From: Mytilus trossulus | Lineage: Eukaryota | Direction: 5' to 3' | Assembly: GCF_036588685.1 (NCBI RefSeq) | Contig: NC_086375.1 | Span: 68,076,001-68,140,000, forward strand | Length of the DNA stretch: 64,000 bases | Translations under genes and position numbers: made by a program | In this document: positions 599 through 10,070 of the stretch, piece after piece | Layout: every line of letters begins with the position of its first letter | How positions within the stretch are numbered: the stretch's first letter is position 1 | Notes under the pieces: generated by a model | The model's database searches: none | What the model was told of the DNA's origin: nothing | The model's input: only the letters and a program-made list of their open reading frames with translations

Positions 599-704
599 GG
601 ACCAGTGTTGTGTATGAGTAGACTAGAAGAAACAGTCAATGATGCAGATTTTATATTTGAATGTGTCATTGAAGATTTAAGCATCAAAAATGAACTAATG
701 GAAA
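599..704 (+). CDS. Gene 1 exon (Rossmann domain, DADFIFECVIEDLSIK motif)
   Basis: Polypyrimidine tract and AG at 597-598; GTATGT donor at 705; open frame. Confidence 0.88.
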
Positions 705-3700
705 GTATGTTACTATTAATGTTTTTCCTCCTATTTTATATAATATGATTAATGGAGATGTGCAGTAGACATCAATTTTAAATCAAAGAAAGTTTCAGAA
801 TGAAATAAAATCTAAGAGATATTATATACGTTTTTACAAGTTGTTGTTAAATAAACACAGACTTTTTTCAGACTCATCAACACTGAATTAAAAATATAGG
901 TAGACAAAAAATTACTGAAAGGTTCTTGACTTTGGGCGATCTACCGGTACTTGTGTATTAGTATTCAACCCTGTTTAGATAACTCAATCTATAGACAAAA
1001 AACAAATAATACAGTTAAATTACACATTGGAATTAAAAATCTATAGACAAAAAACAAATAATACAGTTAAATTACACATTGAAATTAAAAATCTATAGAC
1101 AAAAAACAAATAAAACAGTTAAATTACACATTGGAATTAAAAAATCTATAGACAAAAAACAAATAAAACAGTTAAATTACACATTGGAATTAAAAATCTA
1201 TAGACAAAAAACAAATAAAACAGTTAAATTACACATTGGAATTAAAAATTTATAGACAAAAAACAAATAAAACAGTTAAATTACACATTGGAATTTAAAA
1301 ATCTAAAATAGCATATGACTATAACAGAAGACCAAATAGCAAATAGATCTTTTAGTTAATAATATCATAATTAAATTTTGGATTCAACATACCTTCTGAT
1401 TAACTGAATGTTTTTTGTCAATAAGCTCATGGGCATAATTTTGTCGTGTTACTATTATGCCTTCAGCGTTTTTTTTCTTCATGATTTACTCCTTAAAAAA
1501 ATGAAATCTAGAATTAAATGATTTAAAATGAACTATGTCTATAAAACATTCATTGATTTTTTTTTCAGGAATAACTTACTCCTGCAAACCAGAGTCAATA
1601 ATATGCACAAATTCACTGAGACTTAAAGTTGATGATGTTTTCTGTAAAGTTCAAGGCAAAGAGGTATAGAAATATGCTGTATTAATTGTTTGTAGATCTC
1701 CTAATACATGTTTTGATGCCATTCTGATATTTTATACGGTATAGAAATATATTAAAAAAAAAAATAATATTGGATTTATTTTTTTCATTTTGATTATTGA
1801 TGATCAACTATGATCCACCACACATTTGATGGGGTGGATTTTCTAACTTGACAGTTTCTTAAAATGTTTGAATTATAGATATTGCATTTTCATTTCAAAT
1901 AAGAAATGTTAAAAAATCACTTCAGCTTTTGAATTCAACCTGGTATCAAAATATTACTTCTAAAGTGATATTTTTGAATGTTTACAGAGATGTATTGGAT
2001 TAAGGTTCCTGTATCCAGTTTTTACTTCTTCTAAAGTGATATTTTTGAATGTTTACAGAGATGTATTGGATTAAGGTTCCTGTATCCAGTTTTTACTTCT
2101 TCTAAAGTGATGTTTTTGAATGTTTACAGAGATGTATTGGATTAAGGTTCCTGTATCCAGTATTTACTTCTTCTAAAGTTATATTTTTGAATGTTTACAG
2201 AGATGTATTGGATTAAGGTTCCTGTATCCAGTATTTACTTCTTTTAAAGTGATATTTTTGAATGTTTACAGAGATGTATTGGATTAAGGTTCCTGTATCC
2301 AGTATTTACTTCTTCTAAAGTGATATTTTTGAATGTTTACAGAGATGTATTGGATTAAGGTTCCTGTATCCAGTATTTACCATACCAGAAGTAGAACTTA
2401 CTCCCTGTCAACATACCTCTCAAAGAAATGTAACCAAAGGTAGTAAATTAACAGGTCATTTGTTGAGCAATGAATTAAGAAAAATGTATTTTAGGCTCCA
2501 ACAGCACCAATTGGTGATTTTATGGTAGCAAATTAAGTTTACAACAGACTTGTTAGCTAATCACCATTCTAAAAAAACTAACAGGGATCAATGTCAAATC
2601 ATACATAAAAAATATGTCACACATCATCTGCGCTTGAACTTAACTTTTCATAGCATCAACTGTTCCTTACTAAATCCACCGTCATAGGGAATAGATTATA
2701 AAATAAAGTTTACATGTTTAACCCCGCTGCAATTTTGTGCCTGTCCCAAGTCAGGAGCCACTGGCCTTTGTTAGTCTTGTGATTTTTAATTTTAGTTTCT
2801 TGGGTATAATTGGGAGTTTAGAATGACGTCCATTGTCACTGAACTAGAACTAGTATACATATTTATTAAGGGGCCATTTGAAGGACACCTCCGGGTGAGG
2901 GAGTGGAGTTTCTCGCTACATTGAAGACTCATTGGTGGCCTTCGGCTGTTGTCTGCTCTACGGTCGGGTTGTTTTCGCTTTGACACATTCCCCATTTACA
3001 TTCTCAATTTTATTATGCATTTCAAATAACAAATTTGATAAATTGTAGTGATTCAGATATATAATGTATAGGTATTTTGCAGAATTATTTATTTTTGCTG
3101 TAAAACAATTGGTTGGTTTTTTTTTTTATAGTAAGAGAAATGTTGGAAAAGATGGGTAAAGTACTATTCTTCAGATCTGGGACACAACCTTTGATTTTAT
3201 CTGACCTGCAGAGAGAAGAAAGAAAGAAAGGTATATCATCACTAACCATGCTAAATATTTAAGATGAACTAACGTTATCGTTCAATATTTCATTCAAGCC
3301 TGTTTCTAAAAAATAAAACCATTTATTGAATTACTTTGGTTATTATACAAATGAATTCAGTAGGTTCAGTAAGACCCCTTTTTGGCCCCAAAATATAGCA
3401 GTTTTACAAAATTGATAAAATGTAAACTTTGAGTTATTCATTGCACAGTAGAATGCTTCTGCTACATAAATATGGGCTGTTTTTGATAATACAATGCACA
3501 TATACCCTGTACTAGCACCATTAAGTCATTCTAAATTACTGAAATCTTCACAATTCTAGCATTTTAGTTAAATTTTAGACAGTTTTAGTGTAAAACGAAA
3601 GTGGCCGCATTTGTGTTCATCCCTAATATTGAAATGTAAGTTGTATTTGACGATAATACATAACATATATAAAGGTTGAGGATGAACACGGATGCAACCA

Positions 3701-5414
3701 CTTCCATTTTTTCAAAAAAACATCTGAAAAGTGACATTTTTCGGCATATTTGGTAGATTTTTCATATTTGTGCTTGAATTGGATCGTTTGTAATGACTAA
3801 ATCAGTTAAAATCTTTCACATTAACTAATTAATTCAAATTAAATAGACACTTTAGTGTTTAAAAAGTGGTCAAAATCTTTCGTCAGATGAACCTGAAATT
3901 AGAGGCCAAAATCGGTCCTTACCGGACCTACTCCTTTGGCATTAAATATTTATCTGCAGTCCGCATACACAAATAATTGTTGGAGCATTACTCAACTATC
4001 CTTTTTCATGGAAAGTATCATTTTGAAATGTGATTACTTGATGTAGCAATGCTCAATTCCTTCTTTTCCCAAGAAACACACCAAATAATTCAATTTTAGT
4101 AATTATTTATTTCAATTACGGGAACCTAGAACACTACCATACAAGAAGAATTACCATCTTTGACTGATAATAATAGAAATAATTCATGGAGGTTGAATTT
4201 ATTTAAGAATTGAATGCTTCTTTTTGTAAATTTATTGGGGTGTAAAAGCGTTGACCCAAGTACATTTTGTTTCGGCGCTTCATTTTAAAAATGTACGCAA
4301 GGTCAACGCTTATACAACCCTATAAAGTTACAAAAAGAAGCATTCAATACTTATAATTACATTTTTTAGCTAGGATCATGAAAACACGATCTTTATCAAG
4401 TTTTATTTAATTCACCTGTGCACTTTATTGTGGGACCTCGTGTCATCATGAATGATAAATTTTATTGTCTCATGCAATTGCTTACGGAATAACATGTGAT
4501 GTGCAGTTAGCCAATCAGAATAACGTATTATAATGAAACATACATCTAATGTAATTATTATGATTTATTATTCCAAATATTTTACCACAAGCAAAATGTG
4601 AAGCAATTTGTAACTTACAAAAATATATATGGTAAAACATGTACCAAATCAAAATTTAATGTTAAATAGTTTAATGAATAAAACCAATGAAAAATGTCTG
4701 AGTGAAGAATTATTTCTATTTCAGCTTGTTTAGAAAGAATATTAAACTCATCAGGTATGGGGTGTCTATATGAGAAAACCATTCCAAGTTTGACCTTGGA
4801 GCCAGGAGGTCATGGGGGCAGTGTTGTCACTGTCAAAGAAACCAAAAAAGGTAAATCAAGAATTACCAATAGTATTTTACAATTGAAATTTTTTTTTCAT
4901 GATTTTGTATTTAACAAAAAATAAATATTCAGACATGTTATTTCTAGTACGGTAAACTTGGGATTTCAGAATCAGATTTTTACAATATAATAATCTTGGT
5001 ATTTGGTCTTCTGAATACTTGAAATTTTTGTTATTTTAATGTGGGTCATGAATGGTTCCAACTAACTTTTTAATTGAAATGTTTAAATATTGCCATTTAC
5101 ATTTAAGTACTGCAGAATCTTAGTAAAGTATTGAACTGTTGTATATAGGAATGTAACCCATTGGCTGTATATATCAATTAAAGTAAGGCTACAACATGAG
5201 ACTTGCAAATTTAACAATCCAACTTAATCCTACTATTTTATGTTTTACAGAAGAATGTGCTATATGTATGGATAGATCAAGAAACAGTGTGATATGTCCA
5301 TGTCATCATTTAGTAGCTTGTTATGAGTGTACAAAGATGTTACTAAACAGAAAAGATGCCTGTCCTATCTGTAGAAAAGACATAACAGAAGTTATCAGAG
5401 TTTATCATTCCTAG
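599..5414 (+). CDS. 5'-partial spliced gene: 3-hydroxyacyl-CoA dehydrogenase-like NAD-binding domain fused to a C-terminal RING finger (putative E3 ligase); join(599..704,1569..1663,2343..2439,3132..3230,4725..4850,5251..5414), 228 aa in window
   Basis: All exons have AG/GT boundaries and compatible phases. Translation: GPVLCMSRLEETVNDADFIFECVIEDLSIKNELMER-ITYSCKPESIICTNSLRLKVDDVFCKVQGKE-RCIGLRFLYPVFTIPEVELTPCQHTSQRNVTK-VREMLEKMGKVLFFRSGTQPLILSDLQREERKK-ACLERILNSSGMGCLYEKTIPSLTLEPGGHGGSVVTVKETKK-EECAICMDRSRNSVICPCHHLVACYECTKMLLNRKDACPICRKDITEVIRVYHS*. It aligns by eye to the 3HCDH consensus DADLVIEAVxExLxxK...ILASNTSSL...R.IGxHFFNP....LVE....TS....GK. Confidence 0.88.
987..1305. repeat. About 51-52 bp intronic minisatellite, about 6 copies
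   Basis: Unit aatctatagacaaaaaacaaataa(t/a)acagttaaattacacattggaattaaa. Confidence 0.9.
1569..1663 (+). CDS. Gene 1 exon (IICTNSLRL, equivalent to ILASNTSSL)
   Basis: tttttcag acceptor; GAG|gtatag donor; phase 1 to 0. Confidence 0.88.
1954..2380. repeat. 71-bp tandem repeat (6 copies) spanning an intron-exon junction of gene 1
   Basis: tttacag|AGATGTATTGG recurs with exon-side starts at 1988, 2059, 2130, 2201, 2272 and 2343. Confidence 0.95.
2343..2439 (+). CDS. Gene 1 exon (IGLRFLYP, equivalent to IGxHFFNP)
   Basis: tttacag acceptor in the last copy of the 71-bp repeat; AAG|gtagta donor. Confidence 0.85.
2710..3013 (+). mobile_element. About 300-bp non-autonomous interspersed repeat; a partial, diverged copy lies at about 47735-47860
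   Basis: GC-richer island; the segment taggggcca(g/t)(c/t)tgaag...ttctc.ct..attgaaga...tttgacac is shared by the two loci. Confidence 0.65.
3132..3230 (+). CDS. Gene 1 exon (end of Rossmann domain, MGK motif, start of linker)
   Basis: Poly-T followed by tag acceptor; AAG|gtatat donor; phase 1 to 1. Confidence 0.85.
3359..3934. mobile_element. MITE with imperfect terminal inverted repeats (Kolobok-like)
   Basis: Left end agtaggttcagtaagacccctttttggcc; reverse complement of right end ggagtaggtccggtaaggaccgattttggcc. Confidence 0.7.
4203..4558. mobile_element. Non-autonomous element with a long internal hairpin (Crypton-like)
   Basis: About 50-bp inverted arms at 4206-4256 and 4301-4352. Confidence 0.6.
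4725..4850 (+). CDS. Gene 1 linker exon
   Basis: tttcag acceptor; AAG|gtaaat donor; phase 1 to 1; open frame. Confidence 0.8.
5251..5414 (+). CDS. Gene 1 terminal exon: C3HC4-type RING finger (IAP/MDM2-like)
   Basis: CAIC...PCHH..ACYEC...CPICR followed by VIRVYHS*; ttttacag acceptor at 5250. Confidence 0.93.
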
Positions 5415-9276: not shown

Positions 9277-10070
9277 CACGTCTGTCGTCGTCCAGCATTA
9301 ACTATTACAAAAATCTTTTCCTCTGAAACTACTGAGCCAAATTTAACCAAACTTAGCCACAATCATCATTGGGGTATTTAGTTTAAAAAAATGTGTCATG
9401 TGACTAAGTCCACCAACCAAGATGGCCGCCATGGCTAAAAATAGAACATAGGGGTAAAATGCAGTTTTTGGCTTATAACTCAAGAACCAAAGCATTAAGA
9501 GTAAATCTGACCGCGGGAGTAAAATTGCTTATCAGGTCAAGATGTATCTGCCCTGAAATTTTCAGATGAATCAGACAACCTGTTGTTTGGTTGCTGCCTC
9601 TGAATTGGTAATTTTAAGGAATTTTTACTGTTTTTGGTTATTATCTTGAATATTATAATAGATAGAGATAAAGTGTAAACAGCAATAATGTTCAGCAAAG
9701 TAAGATTTACATATAAGTCAAAATCACCAAAATGGTCAGTTGACCCCTATAGGAGTTATTGCCCTTTATAGTCAATTTTTAATCATTTTTTCGTAAATCT
9801 TGGTAATCTGTAACAAAAATCTTCTCCTCTGAAACTACTGGGCCAAATTTAACCAAACTTGGCCACAATCATCATTTGGGTATCTAGTTTAAAAAATATG
9901 TCAGGTGACCAAGCCAACCAACCAAGATGGCCACCATGGCTAAAAATAGAACATAGGGGTAAAATGCAGTTTTTGGCTTATAACTCAAAAACCAAAGCAT
10001 TTAGAGCAAATCTAACAGGGAGTAAAATTGTTAATCAGGTCAAGATGTATCTGCCTGAAATTTTCAGATG
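9277..10070 (-). mobile_element. Second copy of the same HINE-like family in opposite orientation, with an internal duplication of about 500 bp
   Basis: Reverse complement matches 8540-8940; the block aaaatctt..cctctgaaactactg...gaaattttcagatg occurs twice (about 9310 and 9815). Confidence 0.65.

What the first reader, a model, noticed from the sequence alone, without database searches (positions are those of the whole stretch)
1569..2439. Pseudoenzyme signature: cofactor-binding residues kept, catalytic His and Ser lost
Seen by manual alignment: ECVIEDLSIK keeps the Glu and Lys of the NAD-ribose-binding E-x4-K motif, and the Asn of SNTSS is kept. However SNTSSL becomes TNSLRL (the Ser137-equivalent of human HADH is Leu) and GxHFFNP becomes GLRFLYP (the His158-equivalent general base is Arg). 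The partner Glu (EVE) remains. Inference: dehydrogenase activity is lost while nucleotide binding may persist, and the new Arg could bind an anionic ligand.
Basis: partly seen in the sequence, partly recalled or inferred. Interest (0 to 1): 0.72.

Follow-up and report, generated by a model that had tools for sequence, protein, structure and literature searches.

The report
Dead dehydrogenase fused to RING ligase
This expressed gene joins a fatty-acid-oxidation enzyme domain that has lost its catalytic residues but kept its NAD-binding ones to a RING finger, a design shared from protists to many invertebrates, and it likely acts as a ubiquitin ligase steered by NAD(H) or a related nucleotide.

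Summary
The exons belong to an intact, spliced 8-exon gene (291 aa). It encodes a 3-hydroxyacyl-CoA dehydrogenase NAD-binding domain followed by a C-terminal C3HC4 RING, with no dehydrogenase C-terminal domain. Aligned to human HADH, His158 is Arg and Ser137 is Leu. This is not a private mutation: among 178 RING-linked domains Arg occurs in 176 and His in none, and Ser137 is never Ser. GxGxxG (131/131), Lys115 (174/174) and Asp45 (143/153) are kept. 87 of 87 full-length members have both domains and none has PF00725. The RING keeps all eight zinc ligands, the linchpin Arg and an IAP/MDM2-type tail. Named members span sponges to amphioxus, choanoflagellates, Acanthamoeba, Emiliania, green algae and a euglenid; databases label many as ordinary dehydrogenases. 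Four literature searches listed no paper on the family. Best reading: a pseudo-dehydrogenase RING E3 ligase, likely regulated or targeted by NAD(H) or ADP-ribose (about 0.5). Loss of the HADH reaction is inferred with high confidence; nucleotide binding, ligase activity and their coupling are untested.

The parts
599..704 (+). Coding exon 3 (aa 62-97): E84, E88 (human Glu110 site), K93 (human Lys115 site). Exons 1-2, with GxGxxG and D31, lie upstream of the window at L001:4997-5048 and L001:9706-9842 (G000:C3:68070997-68071048 and 68075706-68075842).
   Evidence: joint 704-1569 in 3 of 4 runs
1569..1663 (+). Coding exon 4 (aa 97-128): TNSLRL, with N113 (Asn135 site) at 1610 and L115 (Ser137 site) at 1616
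   Evidence: joint to 2343 in 4 of 4 runs
1957..2380 (+). 71-bp tandem repeat, 6 copies, each with the splice acceptor and first 38 nt of exon 5; the five upstream acceptors would all give an early stop
2343..2439 (+). Coding exon 5 (aa 129-161): GLRFLYP with R136 (His158 site) at 2358, Y139 (Asn161 site), E146, and E148 (Glu170 site) at 2394
3132..3230 (+). Coding exon 6 (aa 161-194): end of the Rossmann domain, family motif FFRSGxxPLIL, start of a long helix
4725..4850 (+). Coding exon 7 (aa 194-236): end of helix and low-confidence, variable linker
5251..5414 (+). Coding exon 8 (aa 236-291 and stop): C3HC4 RING (PF13920), linchpin R279, tail R287-x-Y289-x-x

Best explanation
The gene encodes a conserved eukaryotic fusion of a HADH-type NAD-binding domain lacking its catalytic His, Ser and C-terminal domain with a C-terminal RING finger, and it likely works as a ubiquitin ligase whose pseudo-enzyme domain binds NAD(H) or an ADP-ribose-type nucleotide to control activity or target choice. 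Shown: gene structure, splicing, domain layout, residue pattern, taxonomic spread, HADH fold of the predicted model. Inferred: (1) no hydroxyacyl-CoA dehydrogenase activity (about 0.9); (2) the RING is an active, probably dimeric IAP/MDM2-type E3 (about 0.85); (3) the Rossmann domain still binds an adenine dinucleotide (about 0.75); (4) binding gates RING dimerisation or target capture (about 0.5). The invariant Arg136, likely held by Glu148, would either grip an anion where the substrate once sat or close the site.
For: Catalytic side lost: Arg in 176 of 178 RING-linked domains, His in 0; the Ser137 site is L/I/M/V in 177, His in 1, Ser in 0, against Ser in 66 of 72 His-type controls. PF00725 is found in 0 of 87 members, though that domain completes the HAD active site and supplies Asn208 (PMC10988713, passages). 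Cofactor side kept: G8/G10/G13 131/131, 131/131, 138/138; K93 174/174; E88 Glu or Asp 174/174; D31 143/153, and 53 of 55 in a set thinned to under 60% identity against 44 of 68 in His-type controls; the Met26 site is Leu/Met in 49 of 50. RING: eight zinc ligands 180/180, Arg after the last Cys 175/180, R/K287 137/160, Y/F289 133/137, exactly 13 residues after the last Cys in 139 of 181; nearest solved RINGs are MDM2, MDM4 and cIAP1/2; the linchpin Arg and the tail Arg and Phe/Tyr are the residues that prime E2~Ub in such ligases (PMC12326332, PMC6349121, passages). Selection: 15 of 17 variable codons among the listed read differences are synonymous, against 21% expected. The genome keeps at least three His-type HAD genes, so this one does not stand in for beta-oxidation.
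Against: No binding, ligase or coupling data exist. Glycines, E84 and P140 may be kept for the fold alone. D31 is Ser in 8 of 153 members and N113 varies (140 of 176). The Asn161 site is Tyr/Phe/His in 159 of 178, so the nicotinamide end of the pocket is altered (its role is recalled, not read). The linker is low-confidence and variable in length, and pTM is 0.68-0.72, so nothing here shows that the two domains touch. His-to-Arg also occurs in RING-less proteins that keep PF00725 (P0180, P0188), so the change alone does not imply this function. Homologues were gathered with family-seeded queries and include near-duplicates.
Confidence: 0.5

Rival explanations
1. The RING is an active E3, but the Rossmann domain is a ligand-free docking module for a protein target. 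Arg136 and Glu148 form a salt bridge that plugs the old active site, and the cofactor motifs survive for the fold.
For: Arg136 and Glu148 sit at the His158/Glu170 positions, which are hydrogen-bonded in HADH; Ser137 and Asn161 sites have become bulky hydrophobic residues; the family has its own conserved patch (L138, V141, R177, G179, P182, L185); D31 is Ser in 8 members.
Against: D31, E88 and K93 are polar pocket residues, kept as well as or better than in His-type enzymes across five eukaryotic supergroups.
Confidence: 0.25
2. It is still an NAD-dependent enzyme with new chemistry: Arg136 binds a carboxylate or phosphate, or acts as the base, on a substrate other than hydroxyacyl-CoA, possibly a modification on a protein, with the lid supplied by the FFRSG motif and helix or by a partner.
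For: Arg is near-invariant rather than drifting (56 of 57 in the thinned set), Glu148 is kept in 172 of 178, and the cofactor pocket is intact. Arg as general base is known in a few enzymes such as IMP dehydrogenase (recalled).
Against: The domain that closes over substrate and nicotinamide is missing in 87 of 87 and the Ser137 hydroxyl is gone in all 178.
Confidence: 0.12
3. The bound nucleotide is the ubiquitin acceptor: the Rossmann domain holds NAD+ or a protein-linked ADP-ribose and the RING transfers ubiquitin to it, as DELTEX RING-DTC ligases do (recalled).
For: ADP-ribose half of the pocket conserved, nicotinamide and substrate half remodelled, an extra cation (Arg136), E2-priming residues intact.
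Against: DELTEX has a short rigid RING-DTC link (recalled); here the linker is long, variable and low-confidence. No direct test.
Confidence: 0.1
4. A decaying paralogue or a gene-prediction chimera of two neighbouring genes.
For: Two transposase-like ORFs lie in or before intron 1 and an exon start is tandemly repeated.
Against: Open 876-nt CDS, spliced joints linking Rossmann, linker and RING exons, 15 of 17 variable codons synonymous, the same layout in 87 of 87 aligned homologues.
Confidence: 0.01

Closest known systems
3-hydroxyacyl-CoA dehydrogenase family (human HADH/SCHAD, bacterial Hbd, lambda-crystallin CRYL1, FHMPC dehydrogenase)
   Same: NAD-binding domain PF02737 (E 1.5e-33), same fold (Z 27.0), GxGxxG, Asp45, Glu110, Lys115, Asn135 and Glu170 sites.
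   Different: His158 is Arg, Ser137 is hydrophobic, Asn161 is aromatic, and the C-terminal dimerisation domain PF00725 is replaced by a helix, a linker and a RING.
Dimeric C-terminal RING E3 ligases (cIAP1/2, XIAP, BIRC7, MDM2/MDM4, MYLIP)
   Same: Closest solved RINGs; RING at the extreme C-terminus, linchpin Arg, tail Arg-x-Phe/Tyr-x-x like cIAP1 Arg614/Phe616. In cIAP1 a ligand on the N-terminal domains licenses RING dimerisation.
   Different: The N-terminal module is a pseudo-dehydrogenase rather than BIR, p53-binding or FERM domains; no target or ligand is known.
Nucleotide-reading pseudo-enzymes (NmrA/HSCARG, GLYR1/NPAC, Rex, TrkA/KtrA RCK domains) and ADP-ribose-linked RING ligases (RNF146, DELTEX); all recalled, none tested here
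   Same: A dinucleotide-binding fold used without turnover, or a RING coupled to an NAD-derived ligand.
   Different: None of them, as recalled, has a HADH-derived domain or joins a Rossmann fold to a RING in one chain.

Membership tests
HADH/Hbd active dehydrogenases | NAD-binding domain PF02737 with HAD fold | tested here: met
HADH/Hbd active dehydrogenases | GxGxxG and cofactor residues (Asp45, Glu110, Lys115, Asn135 sites) | tested here: met
HADH/Hbd active dehydrogenases | Catalytic His158 paired with Glu170 | tested here: not met
   Arg in 176 of 178, His in 0; Glu kept in 172 of 178
HADH/Hbd active dehydrogenases | Ser137 | tested here: not met
   Ser in 0 of 178 against 66 of 72 controls
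HADH/Hbd active dehydrogenases | C-terminal dimerisation domain PF00725 | tested here: not met
   0 of 87; the space is taken by helix, linker and RING
HADH/Hbd active dehydrogenases | Dehydrogenase activity on hydroxyacyl-CoA | not testable with these tools
   needs an assay
C3HC4 RING E3 ligases, IAP/MDM2 type | Eight zinc ligands in C3HC4 spacing (PF13920) | tested here: met
   180 of 180; above Pfam cut-off
C3HC4 RING E3 ligases, IAP/MDM2 type | Linchpin Arg after the last zinc ligand | tested here: met
   175 of 180; role from PMC12326332
C3HC4 RING E3 ligases, IAP/MDM2 type | Short C-terminal tail with Phe/Tyr | tested here: met
   Y/F289 in 133 of 137 with a letter; 13-residue tail in 139 of 181, weaker in some protist members
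C3HC4 RING E3 ligases, IAP/MDM2 type | Homodimer formation | tested here: inconclusive
   see Tried and rejected
C3HC4 RING E3 ligases, IAP/MDM2 type | E2-dependent ubiquitin transfer | not testable with these tools
   needs an assay
Nucleotide-sensing pseudo-enzymes | Binds NAD(P)(H) without turnover and changes output on binding | not testable with these tools
   only the residue pattern is in hand

The most novel reading that the evidence does not exclude
An ancient, overlooked class of eukaryotic E3 ligase that reads the NAD+/NADH ratio or ADP-ribose directly through a repurposed beta-oxidation enzyme domain and turns it into ubiquitylation, present in five supergroups and possibly in the last common ancestor of eukaryotes, but missing from the usual model organisms.
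Probability: 0.35. Interest if true: 0.9.

Novelty: new variant of a known kind. Interest (0 to 1): 0.72.

Why it matters
If the nucleotide controls the ligase, this would be a one-protein link between redox or NAD state and protein turnover, found in bivalves, corals, worms and plankton. It is small, single-copy in this genome by the protein search and testable with standard binding and ubiquitylation assays. Even if the sensing idea fails, many public entries named '3-hydroxybutyryl-CoA dehydrogenase-like', 'lambda-crystallin homolog' or 'peroxisomal bifunctional enzyme-like' are likely misnamed and should not be read as fatty-acid oxidation markers in invertebrate expression studies.

Tried and rejected
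Homodimer prediction of the full-length protein with NAD: score 0.00, 'no answer', neither support nor evidence against. Prokaryote genomes: 45 pattern matches, one locus matching only residues 1-29, no family member; the patterns came from animal sequences, so this is a weak negative. Viral contigs: 11 loci, all RING only, none with the Rossmann domain. The same scans with the broader alignment A2 could not be run, as it has no conserved stretch. No RNA run was on record as RNA; the four laid runs are guessed RNA. A FastTree run with the motif columns dropped did not recover one clade (4 changes, long-branch joins flagged). A formal dN/dS was not computed, since no orthologous coding DNA was available; one search uses only the coding rows of the 40 listed differences (110 more were not shown). 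A human HADH variant His170Arg (His158 in mature numbering) is recalled as stable but enzymatically impaired (Velasco et al. 2021); the paper is not held and searches found nothing, and only its citation was seen, so it is not counted as evidence. Searches for Ser137 alongside His158 and Glu170 gave 0 papers, so the roles of Ser137, Asp45, Glu110, Lys115, Asn135 and Asn161 are recalled. Three look-ups of earlier scan findings returned nothing.

Full report
The gene. The window lies in a 1.3-Gb eukaryotic assembly; the nearest named homologues are bivalve proteins at 62-68% identity. The finding covers exons 4 and 5 of an eight-exon gene on the + strand. Exons 1 and 2 lie upstream of the window (L001:4997-5048 and 9706-9842) and exons 3-8 at 599-704, 1569-1663, 2343-2439, 3132-3230, 4725-4850 and 5251-5414. 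The spliced frame is 876 nt with a single terminal stop and differs from database protein P0001 at 10 of 291 residues. Contigs of four runs guessed to be RNA, from three studies, show all five junctions inside the window as GT..AG joints: 704-1569 and 4850-5251 in 3 of 4 runs, the other three in 4 of 4. The acceptor and first 38 nt of exon 5 are repeated six times in a 71-bp array. The five upstream acceptors would give an early stop and do not appear among the 15 listed joints; 47 weaker joints were not shown, so minor use is not excluded.

The observation. A profile of family fragments aligned to human HADH structures puts the family's 'nTlrl' on NTCSL of the S137C mutant and NTASL of the S137A mutant, and 'GlRFLyP' on GLHFFNP. 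So Leu115 is the Ser137 site, Arg136 the His158 site and Glu148 the Glu170 site. His158 takes the proton from the substrate and is anchored by Glu170; the catalytic site lies between the NAD domain and the dimerisation domain, which supplies Asn208 (PMC10988713, passages). GxGxxG is present in exon 1.

Pfam gives PF02737 at residues 3-173 and the RING family PF13920 at 237-284, both above cut-off, and no PF00725. AlphaFold2 models (mean pLDDT 86.7 and 91.9, pTM 0.68 and 0.72) show the Rossmann domain, a helix at 187-204, a low-confidence linker and a confident RING. Of 87 aligned homologues, chosen by me as near full-length hits, 87 carry both Pfam families and none carries PF00725.

The family. 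Three word-based searches and one exhaustive profile search plus cluster look-ups gave 294 proteins at the time of counting, holding 303 domains; 9 had no letter at the His site and were dropped. Among 178 domains in proteins with a RING, the His site is Arg in 176, Gln in 1, Trp in 1 and His in none. The Ser137 site is Leu 120, Ile 30, Met 25, Val 2, His 1. Among 72 His-type domains from the same searches, 66 have Ser. Counting only rows with a letter, the three glycines are 131/131, 131/131 and 138/138, Lys93 174/174, Glu/Asp88 174/174, Asp31 143/153 (Ser in 8), Asn113 140/176 and Glu148 172/178. In a set thinned to under 60% identity (57 rows), Arg136 is 56/57 and Asp31 53/55, against 44/68 in the His-type set. 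The Asn161 site is Tyr, Phe or His in 159 of 178. The sets contain near-duplicates and were gathered with family-seeded queries. Of 37 RING-less domains with Arg, most are short or truncated family fragments, two have a divergent RING, and three (P0155, P0180, P0188) look like separate cases; P0180 and P0188 keep PF00725.

Range and origin. Named members include sponges, corals and jellyfish, molluscs of several classes, annelids, nemerteans, a brachiopod, a flatworm, rotifers, a priapulid, a barnacle, a millipede, a sea spider, echinoderms, hemichordates and amphioxus, and also two Salpingoeca species, Acanthamoeba, Emiliania huxleyi, Pterosperma, Cymbomonas and Peranema. By my own knowledge of taxonomy these fall in five supergroups. 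No listed row names a vertebrate, insect, nematode, fungus or land plant, but many rows are unnamed and lists were capped, so loss is suggested, not shown. The ESM Atlas places both the window's homologue and the Cymbomonas protein nearest one all-eukaryote cluster of 152 members with an automatic two-domain name. In a 132-row tree, 66 family rows formed one clade (SH-aLRT 93) and P0180 and P0188 fell elsewhere. With motif columns removed, FastTree broke the clade. After leaving out long-branch and gappy rows and thinning to 64 rows, IQ-TREE recovered it at 80/83, in 76% of bootstrap trees. A single origin is moderately supported. The genome also holds at least three His-type HAD genes.

The RING. 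Among 181 two-domain proteins the eight zinc ligands are 180/180, the Arg after the last Cys 175/180, Arg/Lys287 137/160 and Tyr/Phe289 133/137, and the chain ends 13 residues after the last Cys in 139 of 181. The nearest solved RINGs are MDM2, MDM4 and cIAP1/2. An Arg linchpin stabilises closed E2~Ub (PMC12326332, passages). In cIAP1 the tail residues Arg614 and Phe616 act in trans within a RING dimer, and ligand binding to the N-terminal domains releases dimerisation (PMC6349121, passages). The family therefore looks like an active dimer-type E3, by inference from sequence.

Selection. Of the coding differences listed, 15 of 17 variable codons are synonymous against 21% expected (binomial p about 6e-9); one is a silent change in the Leu115 codon. 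This uses only the best-supported listed rows.

Mechanism. The half of the site that holds the dinucleotide is conserved, and the half that does chemistry has been replaced in a fixed way, together with the lid domain. The freed C-terminus carries a RING with its E2-priming residues. The most likely reading is an E3 ligase in which NAD(H) or ADP-ribose binding controls dimerisation or target capture (0.5). Rivals are a ligand-free docking domain with an Arg-Glu plug (0.25), a new NAD-dependent chemistry using Arg (0.12), and ubiquitylation of the bound nucleotide itself (0.1). Nothing here shows ligand binding, ligase activity or contact between the domains.

Novelty. Searches of the held library for 3HCDH_N with RING finger, for the enzyme name with RING domain and pseudoenzyme, and for 3-hydroxybutyryl-CoA dehydrogenase with RING finger and domain fusion each gave 0 papers. 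A looser search gave 6 papers, none on this family by title and abstract start (listing only). Subscription journals and supplementary tables were not searched, so a passing mention may exist. Databases hold the proteins under automatic names. Both parts are known kinds; their union, with this fixed residue pattern and this range, appears undescribed. Verdict: real, conserved, likely misannotated, directly testable; new variant of a known kind; interest 0.72.

Noticed in passing
window 1957-2380: Six 71-bp copies of a splice acceptor plus the first 38 nt of the exon that holds Arg136; only the last acceptor is seen among listed joints, and the others would give an early stop.
   Followed up: partly
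window 986-1305: 52-bp intronic tandem repeat, about 6 copies.
   Followed up: no
L001:6863-8365 (+), in intron 1 of the gene: 500-aa open frame with a weak MULE transposase match (E 4.7e-05, below cut-off).
   Followed up: partly
L001:2756-3430 (-), upstream of exon 1: 224-aa frame matching transposase family PF13843 (E 2.9e-28).
   Followed up: partly
window 2588-3109, 3284-3979, 4154-4675: Intronic stretches with very high summed contig depth and many loose ends, as expected of interspersed repeats.
   Followed up: no
proteins P0279, P0135, P0115: Unnamed family members with an N-terminal protein kinase domain before the pseudo-dehydrogenase and RING.
   Followed up: partly
protein P0048 (millipede): PX domain ahead of the two-domain unit; may be a true fusion or merged gene models.
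   Followed up: no
protein P0081: Tandem duplication of the whole Rossmann-RING unit in one 669-aa chain.
   Followed up: no
proteins P0007, P0009, P0012, P0015, P0016, P0021, P0023: A clam subgroup (Mercenaria, Mya, Dreissena, Mactra and unnamed relatives) has Ser in place of Asp31, which may mean a change of cofactor preference.
   Followed up: no
proteins P0180, P0188, P0155: His-to-Arg at the catalytic site in RING-less HAD-family proteins, apparently independent of this family.
   Followed up: partly
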